Part shown: piece after piece, positions 14,725-45,054 of the stretch | How positions within the stretch are numbered: position 1 is the first letter of the stretch | Layout of the letters: each line of letters starts with the position of its first letter | Assembly: GCF_018977255.1 (NCBI RefSeq) | Contig: NW_024704742.1 | Span: 53,940,001-54,004,000 of the forward strand | From: Callorhinchus milii | Lineage: Eukaryota | Reading direction: 5' to 3' | Length of the DNA: 64,000 nt | Position numbers and translations under genes: made by a program | The notes under the pieces: model-generated | The model's database searches: none | What the model was told of the DNA's origin: nothing | What the model saw: the letters and a program-made list of their open reading frames with translations, nothing else

Positions 14725-15148
14725 ATAATATTGCAGAAATCATCGGGTTGTTTTAAACAGTTTCACTGTAAAATGTTACAATGTTCCCTTGATTGTTGAA
14801 ATACTTTTTGCAGAAATAGAAATCAATAGTTAAAGTATCATTAAAATCTCGAAAACTCGGTGATCAGATAGAATGCATTCGAGACTAGCAAAGTAAATGA
14901 CAGTACGAGAAGAAAATTTGGTTGGAAATTTCTACAGCTCATTAAATACTCAACTAATGCCAAATTAGAAATAGCCTATTTTGTTCTAAAGGTCTGGGAA
15001 CACTGGTCTGGGAATTACAGACCAAAACTATATCAAGAGCAGCAAAAACATTTGGGTTTACTGATTCATGTGTATTTTCAATAATAATAATAATCCTTGC
15101 ATTTGATATAGCATTATATATATTGATTTAGCATCTTATCAGGTCAGC

Positions 15149-25229: not shown

Positions 25230-26900
25230 TCATTTTTTTAATCCTCCTTCCCAGTGAACTATCTTTCTGTTCCTCTTCCTACTTTTGCTCTTTGTGCCAT
25301 TTTGCTTTCAAAATTTTGCTTGTTCTGTGTTGGTTTCTTTTGCTAATATTCCTTATTCTATAAGTCTTACCTTGATCAAGTATGATCTCTTATGTCTTAA
25401 TCCTTTCCATTATTTTGCCTTTTATCCATATACCATTTTGGCTATTAATTTTTCTGAAGCAGATATTACCTCCAAAGGCTCTAGATCTTTTACAGTTTTA
25501 TTAGGCCATTTCTTGGCTTGTTCACTTCTTTCCTCTAGTTTCTTCTTCACTGCCTCTTTGAATTTTCGGTTTAAGCAGAATGCAAGCCATGGGTAAAATA
25601 CTCTTTAAATGTTCTTAAGACTAATATTTGTGCATATATTGAGCATATTGTGTGATATCTGCGTATTACTGTTTCTGGAGCAGAAACATTTCTGTTACTC
25701 CACTTTTTTCCACTTCAAATTATTGAGATCTCTAATCTCCACAATGATTTGTTCCTCTCCTTTGTACTGAAATACGTCTGTGCCAAGTTTTATCCCTAAA
25801 TATTCTGCTATTTTATGATTTATCAATGTTTCTTTTTGACTTCGATGTCTATGCTTAGCACATATCTCACAACTCTTGACACATTTTTGAATGTATTTTG
25901 TCATTCCAGACCAAAGTATTGGGTCTCTGGCTCTCTATTTAATTTTTTTATTCCCAATGTCCTGCATGTAAGTCTTTTTAACATTATTGGTATTACAATG
26001 TATAATAATTCTCCTCCTTTCTTACAAAATACCTTTGTATACTGACATCTCTTCCCTATACTGATAATAACCCCTCACTCTTTCTGGTACCTTTTTGTGG
26101 TTTCTGGCCACGTGGAGTCCTGTAGCTCAGTGGTCAGAGCACTCACCTCGCAAGCAAGAGACCTGGGTTTGATTCTCGGCAGGGCAAAATGTTGGGCAAG
26201 TTTCGTTACTCCACACACCTCTGTTTACCTAGGAGTAAGTAGGAACCCGGTTGTTAGTCGATTGGTAGATCATTTTTCCAGGGATAATAATTCCTTTAAA
26301 AAATAAAAAAAATTGGTCATTTTAATCCCTGACTGTTTGTGGGACACTGCTGTGCACAATTGGCTGCCATGTTTTGCCCACAAAATATACAGTCAAATCA
26401 ATTTACAATATATTCTGTGAAGCGCTATGAGATGTCTTGAAGACGTGATAAGACGCTATGTCAAATGCGAGGATTATTATCTCTTCCCTATACTGGTAAT
26501 ATCCCCTCACTTCTTCTGGTGCCTTTTTGTGGTTTCTGACTGTCTGATTTTAATGTATCTGATAGTATTCAAAACATTCTTTCCCTTTCCATGTGTTGTT
26601 TTACCTCTTCCTATCTATGATTAGAATCTTTTAAGTTTCTTGTTATATATAGCATCTGTGCTTCTATTTTGGCAACCATCTGTCTATCCTTATTCTTCTC
26701 ATCTTTCTGCACATAAGCTCTATTTAAAGCATCTGCCATATGGAGGTCCCTTCCTGGCCTACATCATAATATGATCCCATACTTCTATAGTCTGAATAGC
26801 AGCCTTTGAGTGGCAAAGCTTTCACTTCAAGTAGTTTGTTATCATTCTCATCTAGCAGATTTTTCCATATATGTATGATATAGCACTCTGAGACGCTACC
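25230..26900 (-). pseudogene. Ty3/Gypsy LTR-retrotransposon pol remnant (RNase H end, integrase Zn-binding and C-terminal parts)
   Basis: Minus-strand 26718-26810 reads 'QRLLFRL*KYGIIL*CRPGRDLHMADALNRA' (ADALSR motif). ORF 25695-25904 reads 'MTKYIQKCVKSCEICAKH...LGTDVFQYKG'. 'KTVKDLEPL' occurs near 25490. Confidence 0.8.
26112..26480 (+). mobile_element. tRNA-derived SINE, long subfamily, inserted in Gypsy pol
   Basis: Complete head, ctctgtttacctaggagtaagtaggaacccgg middle, and tail; flanked by a ~61-bp direct repeat. Confidence 0.92.
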
Positions 26901-40701: not shown

Positions 40702-42032
40702 AACAACAACAACAACAAAATTACATTTATAGAGCACCTTTCACATTGAGAGAACGTCCCAAAGCGCTGAACAGTCAGGTGTCGGGGCCTGAGCATGGGG
40801 GAGGGGTGGTGTAGGGGTGAGGGAAGGCAGAGAGGTGGGAGGGAGACCAAAGGCCCAGTCGAAGAGAAGGGACTTGAGATTAGCCTTGAAGGAGACAAGG
40901 GAGGAAGTGAGGTGAAGGGACCGTGGGATGGAGTTCCAGAGTGTGGAGGCAGAAAGGCTGAAAGCCCGGCCACCGATGGTAGGGCGGGTCGGGCGGAAGA
41001 CATGGAGCAGGCCGGAGCCCGCTGAACAGAAAGAGTGGGCAGGTTGGTAGGGAGTCAGCAGATCAGAGAGGTAGGAAGGGGCAAGGCTATGGATAGCCTT
41101 AAAGGTGAAAATGAGGATCTTAAACTTGATCCTCTGCGGGATGGGGAGCCAGTAGATTCGGGCGAGGGTGGAGTGATGGGGTCGCGGAGCCTGGTGCGTG
41201 AGAGTACACAAGCTGCGGAGTTTTGGATGATCTGCAGCTTGTGAAGGGAAGAGTTGGGAAGGCCGATGAGGAGGGAGTTCCCGTAATCGAGCCTTGAGGT
41301 GACGAATGCGTGGGTGAGGGTTTTGGCAGCCTGAGGGGTGAGGCAGTGGCGGAGTCTGGCAATGTTGCGGAGGTAATGGTAGGTAGTGCCGGTCATGGTG
41401 CCGATGTGGGGAAAAAAGGACAGTTCAGGGTCAAACAAGATACCCAGGTTCCTGACTGGTTTAGTGAGGTTGAGTGTGCAGCCGTGGAGGCTGATGCTGC
41501 CAGCGCCCGAGGTGTGGAGGCGCTGGCGCGAGCCAATCAGGAGGGCCTCGGTCTTGCTGAAGTTGAGCTGGAGAAAGTTGTTCCTCCTCCAAGACTTGAT
41601 ATCGGACAGGCAGTCGGTCAGGACCTCAGTAGCCCTGGAATTCAGGGTGGAGGCAGAGAGGTAGAGTTGGGTGTCATCCGCATATATGTGGAAATTTACC
41701 CCATGTCTGCGGATGATGTCACCAAGGGGGAGTATGTATAGGGTGTAAAGGAGGGGACCAAGGACAGAGCCCTGAGGAACACCACACGAGACAGTGCGGG
41801 GACTGGAGGAGAAGCCGTTTGCTGCAACGAAGTGGAGGCGGTGTGAAAGGTAGGACCTGAACCAGTCAAGGAAAGAAGCTTGAAGGCTGAGGTGGGAGGA
41901 GAGGCGGTGGAGGAGGATTGAATGGTCAACGGTGTCAAAGGCGGCGGAGAGGTCGAGGAGGGCGAGGATGCAGAGGGATCCCTGGTCACACATGGTCAGG
42001 ATGTCATTTGTGACCTTGACCAGAGCAGTTTC
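40702..42032 (-). mobile_element. 5'-truncated young L2 LINE containing the RT domain
   Basis: RT motifs plus the C-terminal domain and a complete 3' tail with (TTG)n. Confidence 0.97.
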
Positions 42033-42047
42033 CTTCTCCCTTCTCAA
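41055..42047 (-). pseudogene. L2 ORF2 reverse transcriptase fragment (5'-truncated; frameshift near 41175)
   Basis: 'LLDLSAAFDTVDH', 'GVPQGSVLGPLLY', 'YADDTQLY', 'FVTSRLDYGNSLL'; the C-terminus continues in ORF 40741-41211 ('WLPIPQRIKFKIL...TIGGRAFS'). Confidence 0.93.
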
Positions 42048-44250
42048 AAAGAGAAAGGAGTTTCACCCGGTGTTCTGGCCAACAAATCCCCCAAAATAAA
42101 AGTGGTTGTTCTCTTCATGGTTGTTTATGGGAAAATTGTTGTGCACAAATGGCCTCCACTTTCATCTAAAATACACAATCACTACATTTTACAGCAGAGT
42201 CTCTCAAGCACTTTGACATTTTTGATGACATGAAATGCGTTATATCAAATGTAAGTATTGTTATTATTACTATTATCCCAGTTCATGCACACATCCACCA
42301 CAACTGTTCAAGGGAATAACACAGAGTCACAACCATTCGCATCCAATGCAGATGAGCATTTATTGAGCAGAAAAAATGTCACACCTCCATTGGCCAAAAG
42401 CCTAATCACGTCATAGGCATCAGTGATCCATATCCCAAACAGAGCAATAGATACTGTGAACAGTGGGCCCAGCTTCAAAATGTAAATGATGTAGTATAAG
42501 CAGAAGCATCATATGAACAATATTACATTACAGCCAGATTTCACATTATTGTGGACGAGAGGTCAGATAGGATGTACTTATCCATTTCATGCAGCTTTTC
42601 TCTTTCAATGCCAGTTCCAAGCTTGTTTTATTGGCCTTGAGCTAAATTGCTGTTTGCAGACCTATTTCTGGTGTCTGAAAATCTTGTTGGAAACTTGTAA
42701 CCACCTGTTGCAACAGAAGAATGTCAATCTACACAGTACTGAAATGTCCAGGTATCTTTCTATTGCCAGGAAAACATCTGACACCTTGAAATTCATCTGT
42801 TGCCTCTTCTCAGGGATACCTGAAGACTGGCAGTCAAACTCAGCAACATTAGCATTAACTCGGATGGGTGACATGCAAAATCAGCTGGACAATACTGGCA
42901 TAAAGGTCAATATCTGCAGAACCCACTTTACAAGGCGACAACAGTAGATAATCACAAACCAGTCAAGCAATATGTCAAACTTATTCAAAGAGTGAAGAAT
43001 GAGTCTATTTTACAGAGTGATCACAGTGTGTGTGTGTATACTAATCATTGAGGCAAGTTAGAGAATCTTGGAAATATTGGGCTAACACATTTTGATCAAC
43101 TATATATAAAATCAACGGTGTGAAACTTTCAACCTTCTGTTAGATGTTCAGAATGAGCCTGAAAAGTGCTGATACAGCTTGACCTACTTGTTAGCTATTC
43201 AAAGGAGAAATTAATCAATGAAGAATCCAGGATCTAAACAAATATAAAAATAGAAAGAAAATCGACTTAAGGGTTTCACGAGTAGCAATTTCTCAATAAT
43301 GAAAACACTAATACCTCACACCAACTTGCAGTAACCTATTTTTGGAGTGGAGTTTCCATGGGTCTATTTGATCTGTCTGATAAAGAATGCAAATGGGTCT
43401 CCTTCTGGTAATAGAAAGTACACCGCATACATCAATATGGGAACTCTGGCCTGAAAGTAACATATTGCATTAAAAATCACCAAAATTGTTTTACTCGGTA
43501 CTATAAACAGAAGAGACACCAGAGATTGAAATCCTTGATGAATAGAAGAGTCAGTCTTGGATTCAGTCTGTAATCTGTTCAAAATTATAGTTTCCGCATG
43601 ATATTCATTTTCACATCTAATTCTTATCATTTCACTTGCAATGCTTACCTAATAAAGCATCAACAGAATATGTGATGAGTATTCTGAGTTATCTATTTAA
43701 TCTATTTATGGATATCAATCATATCTCATGATTTCACCACATATTTCCGGCAGCTATGAGCAACAAATTTCAAAGACCAATTTTGAATGTTCTGTACTAT
43801 AACATGTGAATCTGCAATCTCAGTCACGTACATCTTCAGATGGTACCCAGAAGGGATAGATCCAGAATAGTCATTGCTGATGAGGCTAATGCACCCTCAA
43901 GGTGGACAGTAGATTGGAATGAAGCGAAGGATTATCCAACCGAGACCCCTCCAATGCTATTTACTTTGATTGCTTTTCATTTCCTCCATCAAATGTTACC
44001 TCCTTAAACTTCACTCCCCTCTCTTGAAGGTAGTATTGTTTTTGATCAGTCAGATGTCTTGACACATAAAATCCTTCACTATTGCTAATGAATATTCAAA
44101 TTGACTCATGTCAGAAGGATGCTTCACAAGGTTTTACTAAGGTGTAGTTACTACATATTTTGTAGATGAACAGTATATACTTTAGATGTGCACTTTAGGT
44201 TCTTGCTAAATAAATCTAGGAGAATAGTAGGGTATGTCAATCAATGAATC

Positions 44251-44353
44251 ATAACAATAATCCTTGCATTTGAAATTGAGCTTTTCACGTCTTCTAGACG
44301 TCTCAAAGTGCTTCACAGAATATAGTGTAAAGTGAATTGATTGTATATTTGTG
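44251..44353 (-). mobile_element. SINE 3' tail downstream of the U1 retrocopy
   Basis: CACAAATATACAATCAATTCACTTTAC...GAGACGTCTAGAAGACGTGAAAAG...AAATGCAAGGATTATTG on minus. Confidence 0.9.
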
Positions 44354-44388
44354 AATCATACATTATCCATACTCTGATCCTTGCATTT

Positions 44389-44531
44389 TCCCCCACTACC
44401 ACAAATTTTGCAGTCGAGTATCCCGCATTTGGGGACATCGCAGGCATCAGCACACCCGAAGTGCAATGGGTTAGCCTCGTCCTGGGAGAACCACCTTCAT
44501 GATCATGGTGTCTCCCCTGCCAGGTAAGTAT
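44389..44531 (-). pseudogene. RNU1: U1 snRNA retrocopy (nt 1-143, 3'-truncated in stem-loop IV)
   Basis: Minus strand reads ATACTTACCTGGCAGGGGAGACACCATGATCATGAAGGTGG...CCATTGCACTTCGG...AAATTTGTGGTAGTGGGGGA. It includes the 5'SS-pairing end, the U1A loop ATTGCAC and the Sm site ATTTGTG, and lacks the final ~21 nt. Confidence 0.95.
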
Positions 44532-45054
44532 CAAAGTATCATCCTTTGTATATTAAAACTATTTTCTATTAATTCTTAGGAAATCTAGCTCTATGTTTTA
44601 TATATCTATGGGCATGATAAGCACTTCAATAAAGTAAAGAAACACTTAAATTTTCAGCTACTGGATGTATAGAGAATTATGGATACCCTGGAGTGAATAC
44701 AAGCCAAAAACCTTATCAAAGGCTTCAGATGAAGTTATAAAGTCTTAGAGCAAAGCTAAACAAGTTTACAGCTGTTATCTGAACCTTTAGATAAGATTAC
44801 AGCTTAAATCACGCCAAGCTTTTTTCTTAATGTAATAGTTTGTGGGGATATTTTAATCTGTTTGAGTCAATACATTATAGGTTGTCAGCATTTGTAGAGT
44901 TGGCCTATCAGCTAATTAATGTGTAATGTATACAGTTAATGATTAATGATAGTGGCCAAGCTGATCAAGTGAAGTAGCACACAGTGGATTGAGCACAGTA
45001 TTCATACCTTTCTGCCTTTGACTGCCATAAAAATGATTGAAATGTCATAAAAAC

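What the first reader, a model, noticed from the sequence alone, without database searches (positions are those of the whole stretch)
44251..44531. U1 snRNA head fused to the L2/SINE 3' end: SINEU-like chimera
Seen (minus strand): U1 nt 1-143 starting exactly at the U1 5' end, joined without a poly(A) to AAATGCAAGGAT, the terminal motif of this window's L2-dependent SINEs. A 23-nt spacer and a ~100-nt SINE tail ending in AAATGCAAGGATTATTG follow. No U1 3' end, and no snRNA promoter recognised upstream. Established: snRNA-LINE template-switch chimeras (U6-L1) and U1/U2-headed SINEU families in crocodilians. Inference: an L2-mediated U1 chimera, or a member of an undescribed U1-headed SINE family in a cartilaginous fish. 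It retains the splice-site-pairing end, U1A loop and Sm site, and places a consensus donor CAGGTAAGTAT on the plus strand (44521-44531).
Basis: partly seen in the sequence, partly recalled or inferred. Interest (0 to 1): 0.8.

Follow-up and report, generated by a model that had tools for sequence, protein, structure and literature searches.

The report
One-off U1 retrocopy beside SINE fragment
This is a single, recent, promoterless copy of most of the spliceosomal U1 RNA lying next to an older, separately inserted SINE fragment, not a new U1-headed mobile-element family, although the same genome does hold a different repeat family headed by U2 RNA.

Summary
The anatomy is as described, but the family reading fails. 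U1 nt 1-143 is 142/143 identical to 11 identical U1 genes. The junction occurs once in the 992-Mb genome, and this is the only near-identical dispersed U1 copy. The ~100-nt SINE tail is most likely a separate, older insertion: it has its own 9-bp direct repeat, differs more from its family (5/94 versus 1/143), and a look-alike locus runs straight across it. What remains is U1 plus a 12-nt SINE end. The likeliest origin is an L2-type reverse transcriptase that primed on a SINE/L2 RNA end, copied about 6 nt and switched to U1 (p about 0.6), as published for U6-L2 and U6-SINE chimeras. The empty site was not seen. The scan earlier noted a similar one-off 7SK-CR1 chimera in this genome. More interesting, outside the window: a dispersed ~520-nt poly(A)-tailed family headed by U2 nt 1-54 (133 junction matches), and tandem L1/Tx1-type LINEs with a U1-like 5' stretch. 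Both resemble crocodilian SINEU/Tx1. My paper searches found neither reported from cartilaginous fish; Repbase and Dfam were not checked.

The parts
44389..44531 (-). U1 snRNA retrocopy, nt 1-143, 5'-complete; ends at the last base of the lower 5' arm of stem-loop 4, just before its internal loop
   Evidence: Rfam; 142/143 identical to the 11 identical genes; fold of the gene's stem-loop 4
44377..44388 (-). 12-nt SINE/L2 terminal motif without SINE body and without (TAT)n tail
   Evidence: 92 of 96 distinct exact occurrences in held DNA carry a TAT-like tail, and this is the only one lacking both body and tail
44377..44382 (-). 3' copy of a candidate 6-bp target-site duplication (AAGGAT), overlapping the motif's end
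   Evidence: weak alone (null P 0.08)
44541..44546 (-). 5' copy of the candidate 6-bp target-site duplication
44532..44540 (-). 9 nt between the candidate duplication and U1 nt 1. A G plus U1's first six bases occurs twice in tandem, one base apart; the genes have C at -1. Inferred 5' extra nucleotides, with the G possibly copied from the cap
   Evidence: seen directly; gene flank; interpretation is inference
44361..44376 (-). 16 nt of inferred host target DNA (most of the 'spacer')
   Evidence: shared exactly with one locus on C4
44352..44360 (-). 5' copy of 9-bp direct repeat TATGATTCA; its last 2 nt overlap the SINE fragment start
44254..44353 (-). 5'-truncated tRNA-Ala SINE 3' fragment: 94-nt body plus short tail; separate, older insertion
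   Evidence: 90% to the neighbouring full SINE; 5 of 94 differences from the consensus of its 17 best matches
44245..44253 (-). 3' copy of the 9-bp direct repeat, beginning with the tail's TAT unit
44521..44531 (+). consensus 5' splice donor formed by the antisense of U1's 5' end; no evidence of use
   Evidence: seen directly; no host exon found

Best explanation
Two independent retrotransposition events 16 bp apart. First, a 5'-truncated tRNA-Ala SINE landed in host DNA and duplicated 9 bp (fairly well shown, about 0.85 on its own). Later an L2-type reverse transcriptase carrying a SINE or L2 RNA nicked a site reading AAGGAT, primed inside the RNA's terminal motif by microhomology (so no (TAT)n tail was copied), copied about 6 nt, and jumped to U1 snRNA at the internal loop of stem-loop 4. 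It copied U1 to the cap end and was joined with 9 extra nucleotides, leaving a 6-bp duplication (all inferred). The product has no promoter and lacks the SINE stem-loop, so it is a dead end.
For: Single copy: junction 1 match, control 0; U1 24-mer 12 matches, i.e. 11 genes plus this copy. SINE fragment independent: 9-bp repeat at its two ends, the longest among 29 truncated copies, null 0.15-0.33%; older than U1, 5/94 versus 1/143, Fisher P 0.038; a C4 look-alike of the spacer continues into the sequence after the fragment (P 0.0005 on 20 nt outside the searched pattern) and not into the fragment's start (P 0.44). RNA origin of U1: exact 5' start, no promoter, end at a loop. L2-type hallmarks: most held SINE copies show 4-6 bp as their longest end repeat (45 of 56); L2-clade TSDs peak at 3-5 bp and about half of zebrafish ZfL2-2 copies have 5' extra nucleotides (PMC4245944, passages). 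Precedent: U6-L2 and U6-SINE chimeras with 1-9 bp TSDs (PMC4476161 section 10). Two older promoterless U1 copies also sit just ahead of an L2 end (L045) or SINE end (L044), with other junctions.
Against: The 6-bp duplication is weak (null P 0.08), and 4-6 bp repeats are also common between unrelated copies (null 73%). The C4 look-alike does not confirm the left side: the TSD model scores P 0.15 and 'the 12-mer is host DNA' P 0.085, neither significant. Its similarity is not significant over longer flanks, and no further copies were found. Only about 6 nt would come from the SINE RNA, and the same hexamer occurs inside U1 at nt 102. Published U6-L2 chimeras are mostly 5'-truncated, and same-orientation template switches in human are mostly U6. 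L044 and L045 show no TSD. No dispersed U6 copy abutted an L2/SINE end by BLAST against my two references (0 of 14).
Confidence: 0.6

Rival explanations
1. The 12-mer was already in the host DNA (an earlier micro-insertion of a SINE end, or chance), and U1 is a tailless retropseudogene inserted in front of it by an L1/Tx1-type enzyme or during break repair.
For: L1/Tx1-type elements with open ORF2 frames of 1151-1154 aa exist in the genome. Very short SINE ends occur (window 15093). The C4 look-alike fits this model slightly better on the left (P 0.085 versus 0.15). Tailless copies end at single-stranded regions (PMC5322556, passages).
Against: No duplication of 8 bp or more flanks U1 (longest 6), whereas the tailless copies of that paper were defined by 8-35 nt TSDs. 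The motif lacks the tail that 92 of 96 occurrences carry. No SINE body remnant lies upstream. The tandem repeat of U1's start is left unexplained.
Confidence: 0.2
2. One event made the whole 290-nt structure: the enzyme copied ~100 nt of SINE, then local DNA and a second SINE end, then U1.
For: Same orientation and close spacing. 5' extra nucleotides of fish L2s often derive from flanking DNA (PMC4245944, passages). The age contrast is modest (P 0.038) and assumes a consensus-like source SINE.
Against: 9-bp repeat bracketing the SINE fragment alone; C4 continuity across it; the best genomic matches to the tail are 92-95% identical while U1 is 99%.
Confidence: 0.12
3. The locus is a member of a U1-headed SINE family (SINEU-like).
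For: snRNA-headed elements do exist in this genome: a U2-headed family and U1-like heads on L1/Tx1-type LINEs. The Rfam search scored only 42 candidates.
Against: Whole-genome pattern counts give one junction, one dispersed near-identical U1, and one other spacer match, which has no U1 beside it. The LINE heads are 76-80% to U1 and are not the source.
Confidence: 0.02
4. Assembly artefact joining U1 gene sequence to an unrelated locus.
For: U1 is almost identical to the tandem genes, and the junction was not checked against reads.
Against: It carries a private CpG change, starts exactly at nt 1 with no gene flank and stops at a loop. Four samples of one study hold 87-91% of the sampled words of the 3.1-kb stretch, which does not test the junction itself.
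Confidence: 0.03

Closest known systems
U6-L2, U6-Mon-1 (platypus) and U6-AnolisSINE2 (lizard) template-switch chimeras (Doucet et al. 2015, PMC4476161; abstract, passages, sections 6 and 10 read)
   Same: snRNA 5' of an L2 or L2-dependent SINE 3' end, same orientation, short TSD, unique junction per locus
   Different: U1 rather than U6; 5'-complete and 3'-truncated instead of mostly 5'-truncated; partner part only 6-12 nt with no tail repeat
SINEU of crocodilians (Kojima 2015, PMC4494074; parts 1-4 of 5 read, all of the main text)
   Same: U1-derived 5' part, no promoter of its own
   Different: single copy, no shared master, no poly(A), L2-type end rather than Tx1 mobilisation. The U2-headed family found elsewhere in this genome fits SINEU much better than this locus does
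Tailless snRNA retropseudogenes (Noll et al. 2015, PMC5322556; passages)
   Same: 5'-complete, 3'-truncated at a loop, no poly(A)
   Different: no 8-35 nt TSD; a SINE terminal motif sits at the 3' junction
CmiSINEs (SINE2-1_CM, SINE2B-1_CM), partner L2-2_CM (Luchetti et al. 2017, PMC5499810; part 2 of 6 and passages)
   Same: the window's SINEs have a tRNA-Ala head and an L2-like 3' end, as described there
   Different: assignment is by description only; I did not align to the published consensus

Membership tests
SINEU (this U1 locus) | 5' head derived from U1 or U2 | tested here: met
SINEU (this U1 locus) | many dispersed copies with the same junction, from master copies | tested here: not met
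   1 junction match; 1 dispersed near-identical U1
SINEU (this U1 locus) | 3' poly(A) tail | tested here: not met
snRNA-L2/SINE template-switch chimera | snRNA joined in the same orientation to the partner's 3' end | tested here: met
   12-nt terminal motif abuts U1 nt 143; very short, so origin from the partner RNA is inferred
snRNA-L2/SINE template-switch chimera | one short TSD bracketing both parts | tested here: inconclusive
   6-bp repeat, null P 0.08, offset by 9 nt
snRNA-L2/SINE template-switch chimera | partner's terminal repeat tail at the 3' end | tested here: not met
   no (TAT)n after the junction motif; explained only if priming was inside the motif
snRNA-L2/SINE template-switch chimera | both parts absent together from the empty site | not tested
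   no reads laid and no relative genome held; the C4 look-alike is inconclusive on this side
Tailless retropseudogene (L1 type) | 3' truncation at a single-stranded region | tested here: met
   ends before the stem-loop 4 internal loop
Tailless retropseudogene (L1 type) | TSD of 8-35 nt | tested here: not met
   longest repeat 6 nt
SINEU (U2-headed family outside the window) | snRNA head, shared junction, dispersed copies | tested here: met
   U2 nt 1-54 at 96% in the consensus; 133 junction matches versus 9 control; 17 of 23 dispersed U2 hits share the body
SINEU (U2-headed family outside the window) | short, non-coding, poly(A)-ended | tested here: met
   about 500-550 nt, A-rich end; longest stop-free frame 87 codons. 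SINEU is described as under 500 bp, so this is slightly longer
SINEU (U2-headed family outside the window) | mobilised by a Tx1 partner with target preference | tested here: inconclusive
   no shared sequence in 30 of 43 zf-RVT loci examined; 10- and 13-bp repeats in 2 of 13 distinct full-length copies; target preference not tested

The most novel reading that the evidence does not exclude
This chimaera-type genome repeats the crocodilian SINEU story independently. It holds an undescribed U2-headed, poly(A)-tailed short retroposon family of at least about 130 copies and young L1/Tx1-type LINEs with a U1-like head, and the U1 locus is a fresh snapshot of the snRNA-capture step that seeds such families. 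That the U2-headed family is a real retroposon family is likely (about 0.9); whether it is undescribed is open, because Repbase and Dfam could not be searched.
Probability: 0.45. Interest if true: 0.6.

Novelty: new member of a known kind. Interest (0 to 1): 0.35.

Why it matters
The locus itself matters little. It would add U1, and a cartilaginous fish, to the known snRNA-L2/SINE template-switch chimeras, and suggests that a stringent L2-type enzyme can switch template after only about 6 nt. The U2-headed family matters more: SINEU was reported only from crocodilians (PMC4494074), and how promoterless snRNA-headed SINEs are transcribed is left open there. A second lineage would allow a comparative test.

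Tried and rejected
U1-headed family: rejected by pattern counts. Upstream flank as a decayed SINE body: no profile hit. Recurrent U6-L2/SINE chimeras: 0 of 14 dispersed U6 hits had an abutting L2/SINE end by BLAST against one SINE and one L2 from the window; one of the 14 gave no alignment at all. Host gene: Pfam scans of 26 and 133 stop-free frames found only an L2-type reverse transcriptase and an integrase zinc-finger fragment; short exons would be missed. More copies of the C4 look-alike: none. Partner LINE for the U2-headed family: none among 30 zf-RVT loci; tail locus L169 has no body and no frame over 75 codons. Utopia as its source: the paper has no mention of shark or Callorhinchus (PMC4640811, passages); not compared by sequence. 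Earlier scan notes near the window: none; by words for a U2-headed SINE: none.

Full report
Observation. The minus strand carries U1 nt 1-143 at 44531-44389 (Rfam 122 bits), then AAATGCAAGGAT, a 23-nt spacer and a ~100-nt SINE 3' end. The motif is strongly enriched in the window (21 matches against 0.93 expected) and ends tRNA-Ala SINEs. The genome holds 11 identical full-length U1 genes on contig C24 among 20 Rfam matches from 42 scored candidates. The copy differs from them at one CpG base and has none of their upstream sequence (score 12, null mean 12.8, genes 114). Earlier scan notes call the genome elephant shark. The SINE fits the description of CmiSINEs with partner L2-2_CM (PMC5499810, part 2 of 6 and passages), but I did not align it to the published consensus.

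Not a family. The junction 22-mer matches once in 992 Mb with up to 2 mismatches. A U1 internal 24-mer matches 12 places: the 11 genes and this copy. The spacer matches one other place, on C4, with no U1 beside it. Kojima separates SINEU from independent chimeras by shared structure from master copies, and all SINEU have poly(A) (PMC4494074, parts 1-4 of 5). This locus meets neither condition.

The SINE tail is most likely its own insertion. TATGATTCA lies at both of its ends (44360-44352 and 44253-44245), and the 3' copy starts with the tail's TAT unit. A repeat of 9 bp or more arises in 0.33% of random flanks and 0.15% of mismatched SINE pairs; it occurs in 2 of 56 held SINE copies with intact 3' ends and at least 85% identity, this one included. 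The fragment differs at 5 of 94 bases from the consensus of its 17 best matches, a set biased towards it, against 1 of 143 for U1 (P 0.038). The C4 look-alike continues into the sequence after the fragment (P 0.0005 for 20 nt outside the searched pattern) and not into its start (P 0.44). Against this, the likeness is not significant over 250-300 nt flanks and no more copies were found.

The U1 unit. What remains is U1 plus 12 nt. The copy stops at the last paired base before the internal loop of stem-loop 4. The motif has no (TAT)n, unlike 92 of 96 occurrences in held DNA. Its last six bases recur 9 nt upstream of U1 (null P 0.08). In those 9 nt a G plus U1's first six bases is repeated in tandem, while the genes have C at -1. 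I infer priming by microhomology inside the SINE/L2 RNA end, about 6 nt of copying, a switch to U1, copying to the cap, and joining with extra nucleotides. That the G copies the cap is from recall of LINE behaviour, not tested. Short TSDs and 5' extra nucleotides are typical of L2-clade elements in fish (PMC4245944, passages). U6 chimeras with L2 and L2-dependent SINEs are published for platypus and lizard (PMC4476161, sections 6 and 10). The left side is not settled: the C4 locus gives P 0.15 for this model and P 0.085 for 'the 12-mer is host DNA', L1/Tx1-type elements with open ORF2 exist, and the first six bases of the motif also occur inside U1. No reads were laid on the locus, so the empty site and the presence of the junction in other individuals remain open.

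Other snRNA copies. Of 9 non-gene U1 matches, two more lack promoter likeness and lie just ahead of a partner end: L045 (147 of 164 identical; L2 3' end starting 6-9 nt later) and L044 (140 of 164; SINE 3' end 18 nt later, 83-87% to held copies). Their junctions differ and neither shows a TSD, so they are candidates only. None of 14 dispersed U6 hits abutted an L2/SINE end.

Function. The copy has no promoter, no stem-loop 4 and no SINE stem-loop, so I expect it to be inert. The plus-strand donor is inherent to an antisense U1 5' end; scans of 26 and 133 frames found no host exon.

Found on the way. Of 47 U2 matches, 23 are not full-length gene-like copies, and 17 of these share a non-U2 body. 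The junction pattern matches 133 places (control 9) and the 3' end pattern 149 (control 1). The consensus, built from 30 junction loci, is about 540 nt: U2 nt 1-54 at 96%, a unique body with one 12-nt match to U2's 3' loop, and an AATAAA/A-rich end. Copies are about 79% identical to it; 28 of 30 tail loci, found by a different pattern, carry the body. Direct repeats of 13 and 10 bp flank 2 of 13 distinct full-length copies. No partner was found among 30 of 43 zf-RVT loci. Separately, tandem two-ORF LINEs carry a ~40-nt stretch 76-80% like U1 nt 10-50 ahead of ORF1 in 6 of 12 fetched stretches, and in 7 of 7 loci found with one head. The label L1/Tx1-type rests on zf-RVT and layout, not on a tree. 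Crocodilian Tx1 families with U1 heads are described in PMC4494074.

Literature limits. Searches for SINEU with shark, with U2/Keno/Tx1 and with retrotransposon and for U1 chimeras listed no report of these elements in cartilaginous fish; most hits were seen as listings only, with passages read from PMC4640811, PMC5753468, PMC5786205 and PMC5322556. Repbase, Dfam, subscription journals and all supplements were not seen and could hold the U2-headed family.

Verdict. The finding is a real, single, young U1 retrocopy, probably an L2-type template-switch product, beside an older SINE fragment: a new member of a known kind. Interest 0.35, of which the locus alone would earn about 0.2; the rest is for the U2-headed family it led to.

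Noticed in passing
L097, L123, L129, L158, L159, L176 and others (e.g. G000:C1:42551200-42551715, minus strand): Dispersed ~520-nt family headed by U2 nt 1-54 with a shared junction, unique body and A-rich end; 133 junction and 149 tail matches; SINEU-like; partner not found. Not present in the window.
   Followed up: partly
L208, L212-L214, L218-L226 (contigs C122, C147, C171, C217, C464, C757, C837): Young tandem L1/Tx1-type LINEs, some with open ORF2 of 1151-1154 aa, carry a ~40-nt U1-like stretch (76-80%) ahead of ORF1.
   Followed up: partly
L045 (G000:C1:53423929-53424300): Full-length promoterless U1 copy (90%) followed after a short T run by an L2 3' end with (TGT)n tail; candidate U1-L2 chimera 560 kb from this window; no TSD found.
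   Followed up: partly
L044 (G000:C4:22747095-22747420): Full-length promoterless U1 copy (85%), a 17-nt linker resembling the start of the U1 3' flank, then a SINE 3' end of similar age; candidate chimera from a 3'-extended U1 precursor.
   Followed up: partly
L046-L050: Diverged U1 variants that keep a 3'-flank-like sequence and, in L046-L049, weak promoter likeness; probably DNA-level gene duplicates.
   Followed up: no
L058, L059 (contigs C1270, C1019): 3'-truncated U6 copies at 95% identity embedded in (TC)-rich simple repeats.
   Followed up: no
L088-L094 (contigs C388, C1093): A second tandem U2 type, about 91% identical to the main U2 cluster and with different flanks, on small contigs; variant genes or foreign DNA.
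   Followed up: no
window 40720-42040 (-): 5'-truncated L2-type LINE with reverse transcriptase frame (Pfam RVT_1) and (TGT)n tail.
   Followed up: partly
window 15080-15113 (-): SINE/L2 3' end of only about 21 nt plus tail, showing that very short insertions occur.
   Followed up: no
window 25698-25934 (-): Integrase zinc-finger fragment (PF17921), probably an LTR-element remnant.
   Followed up: no
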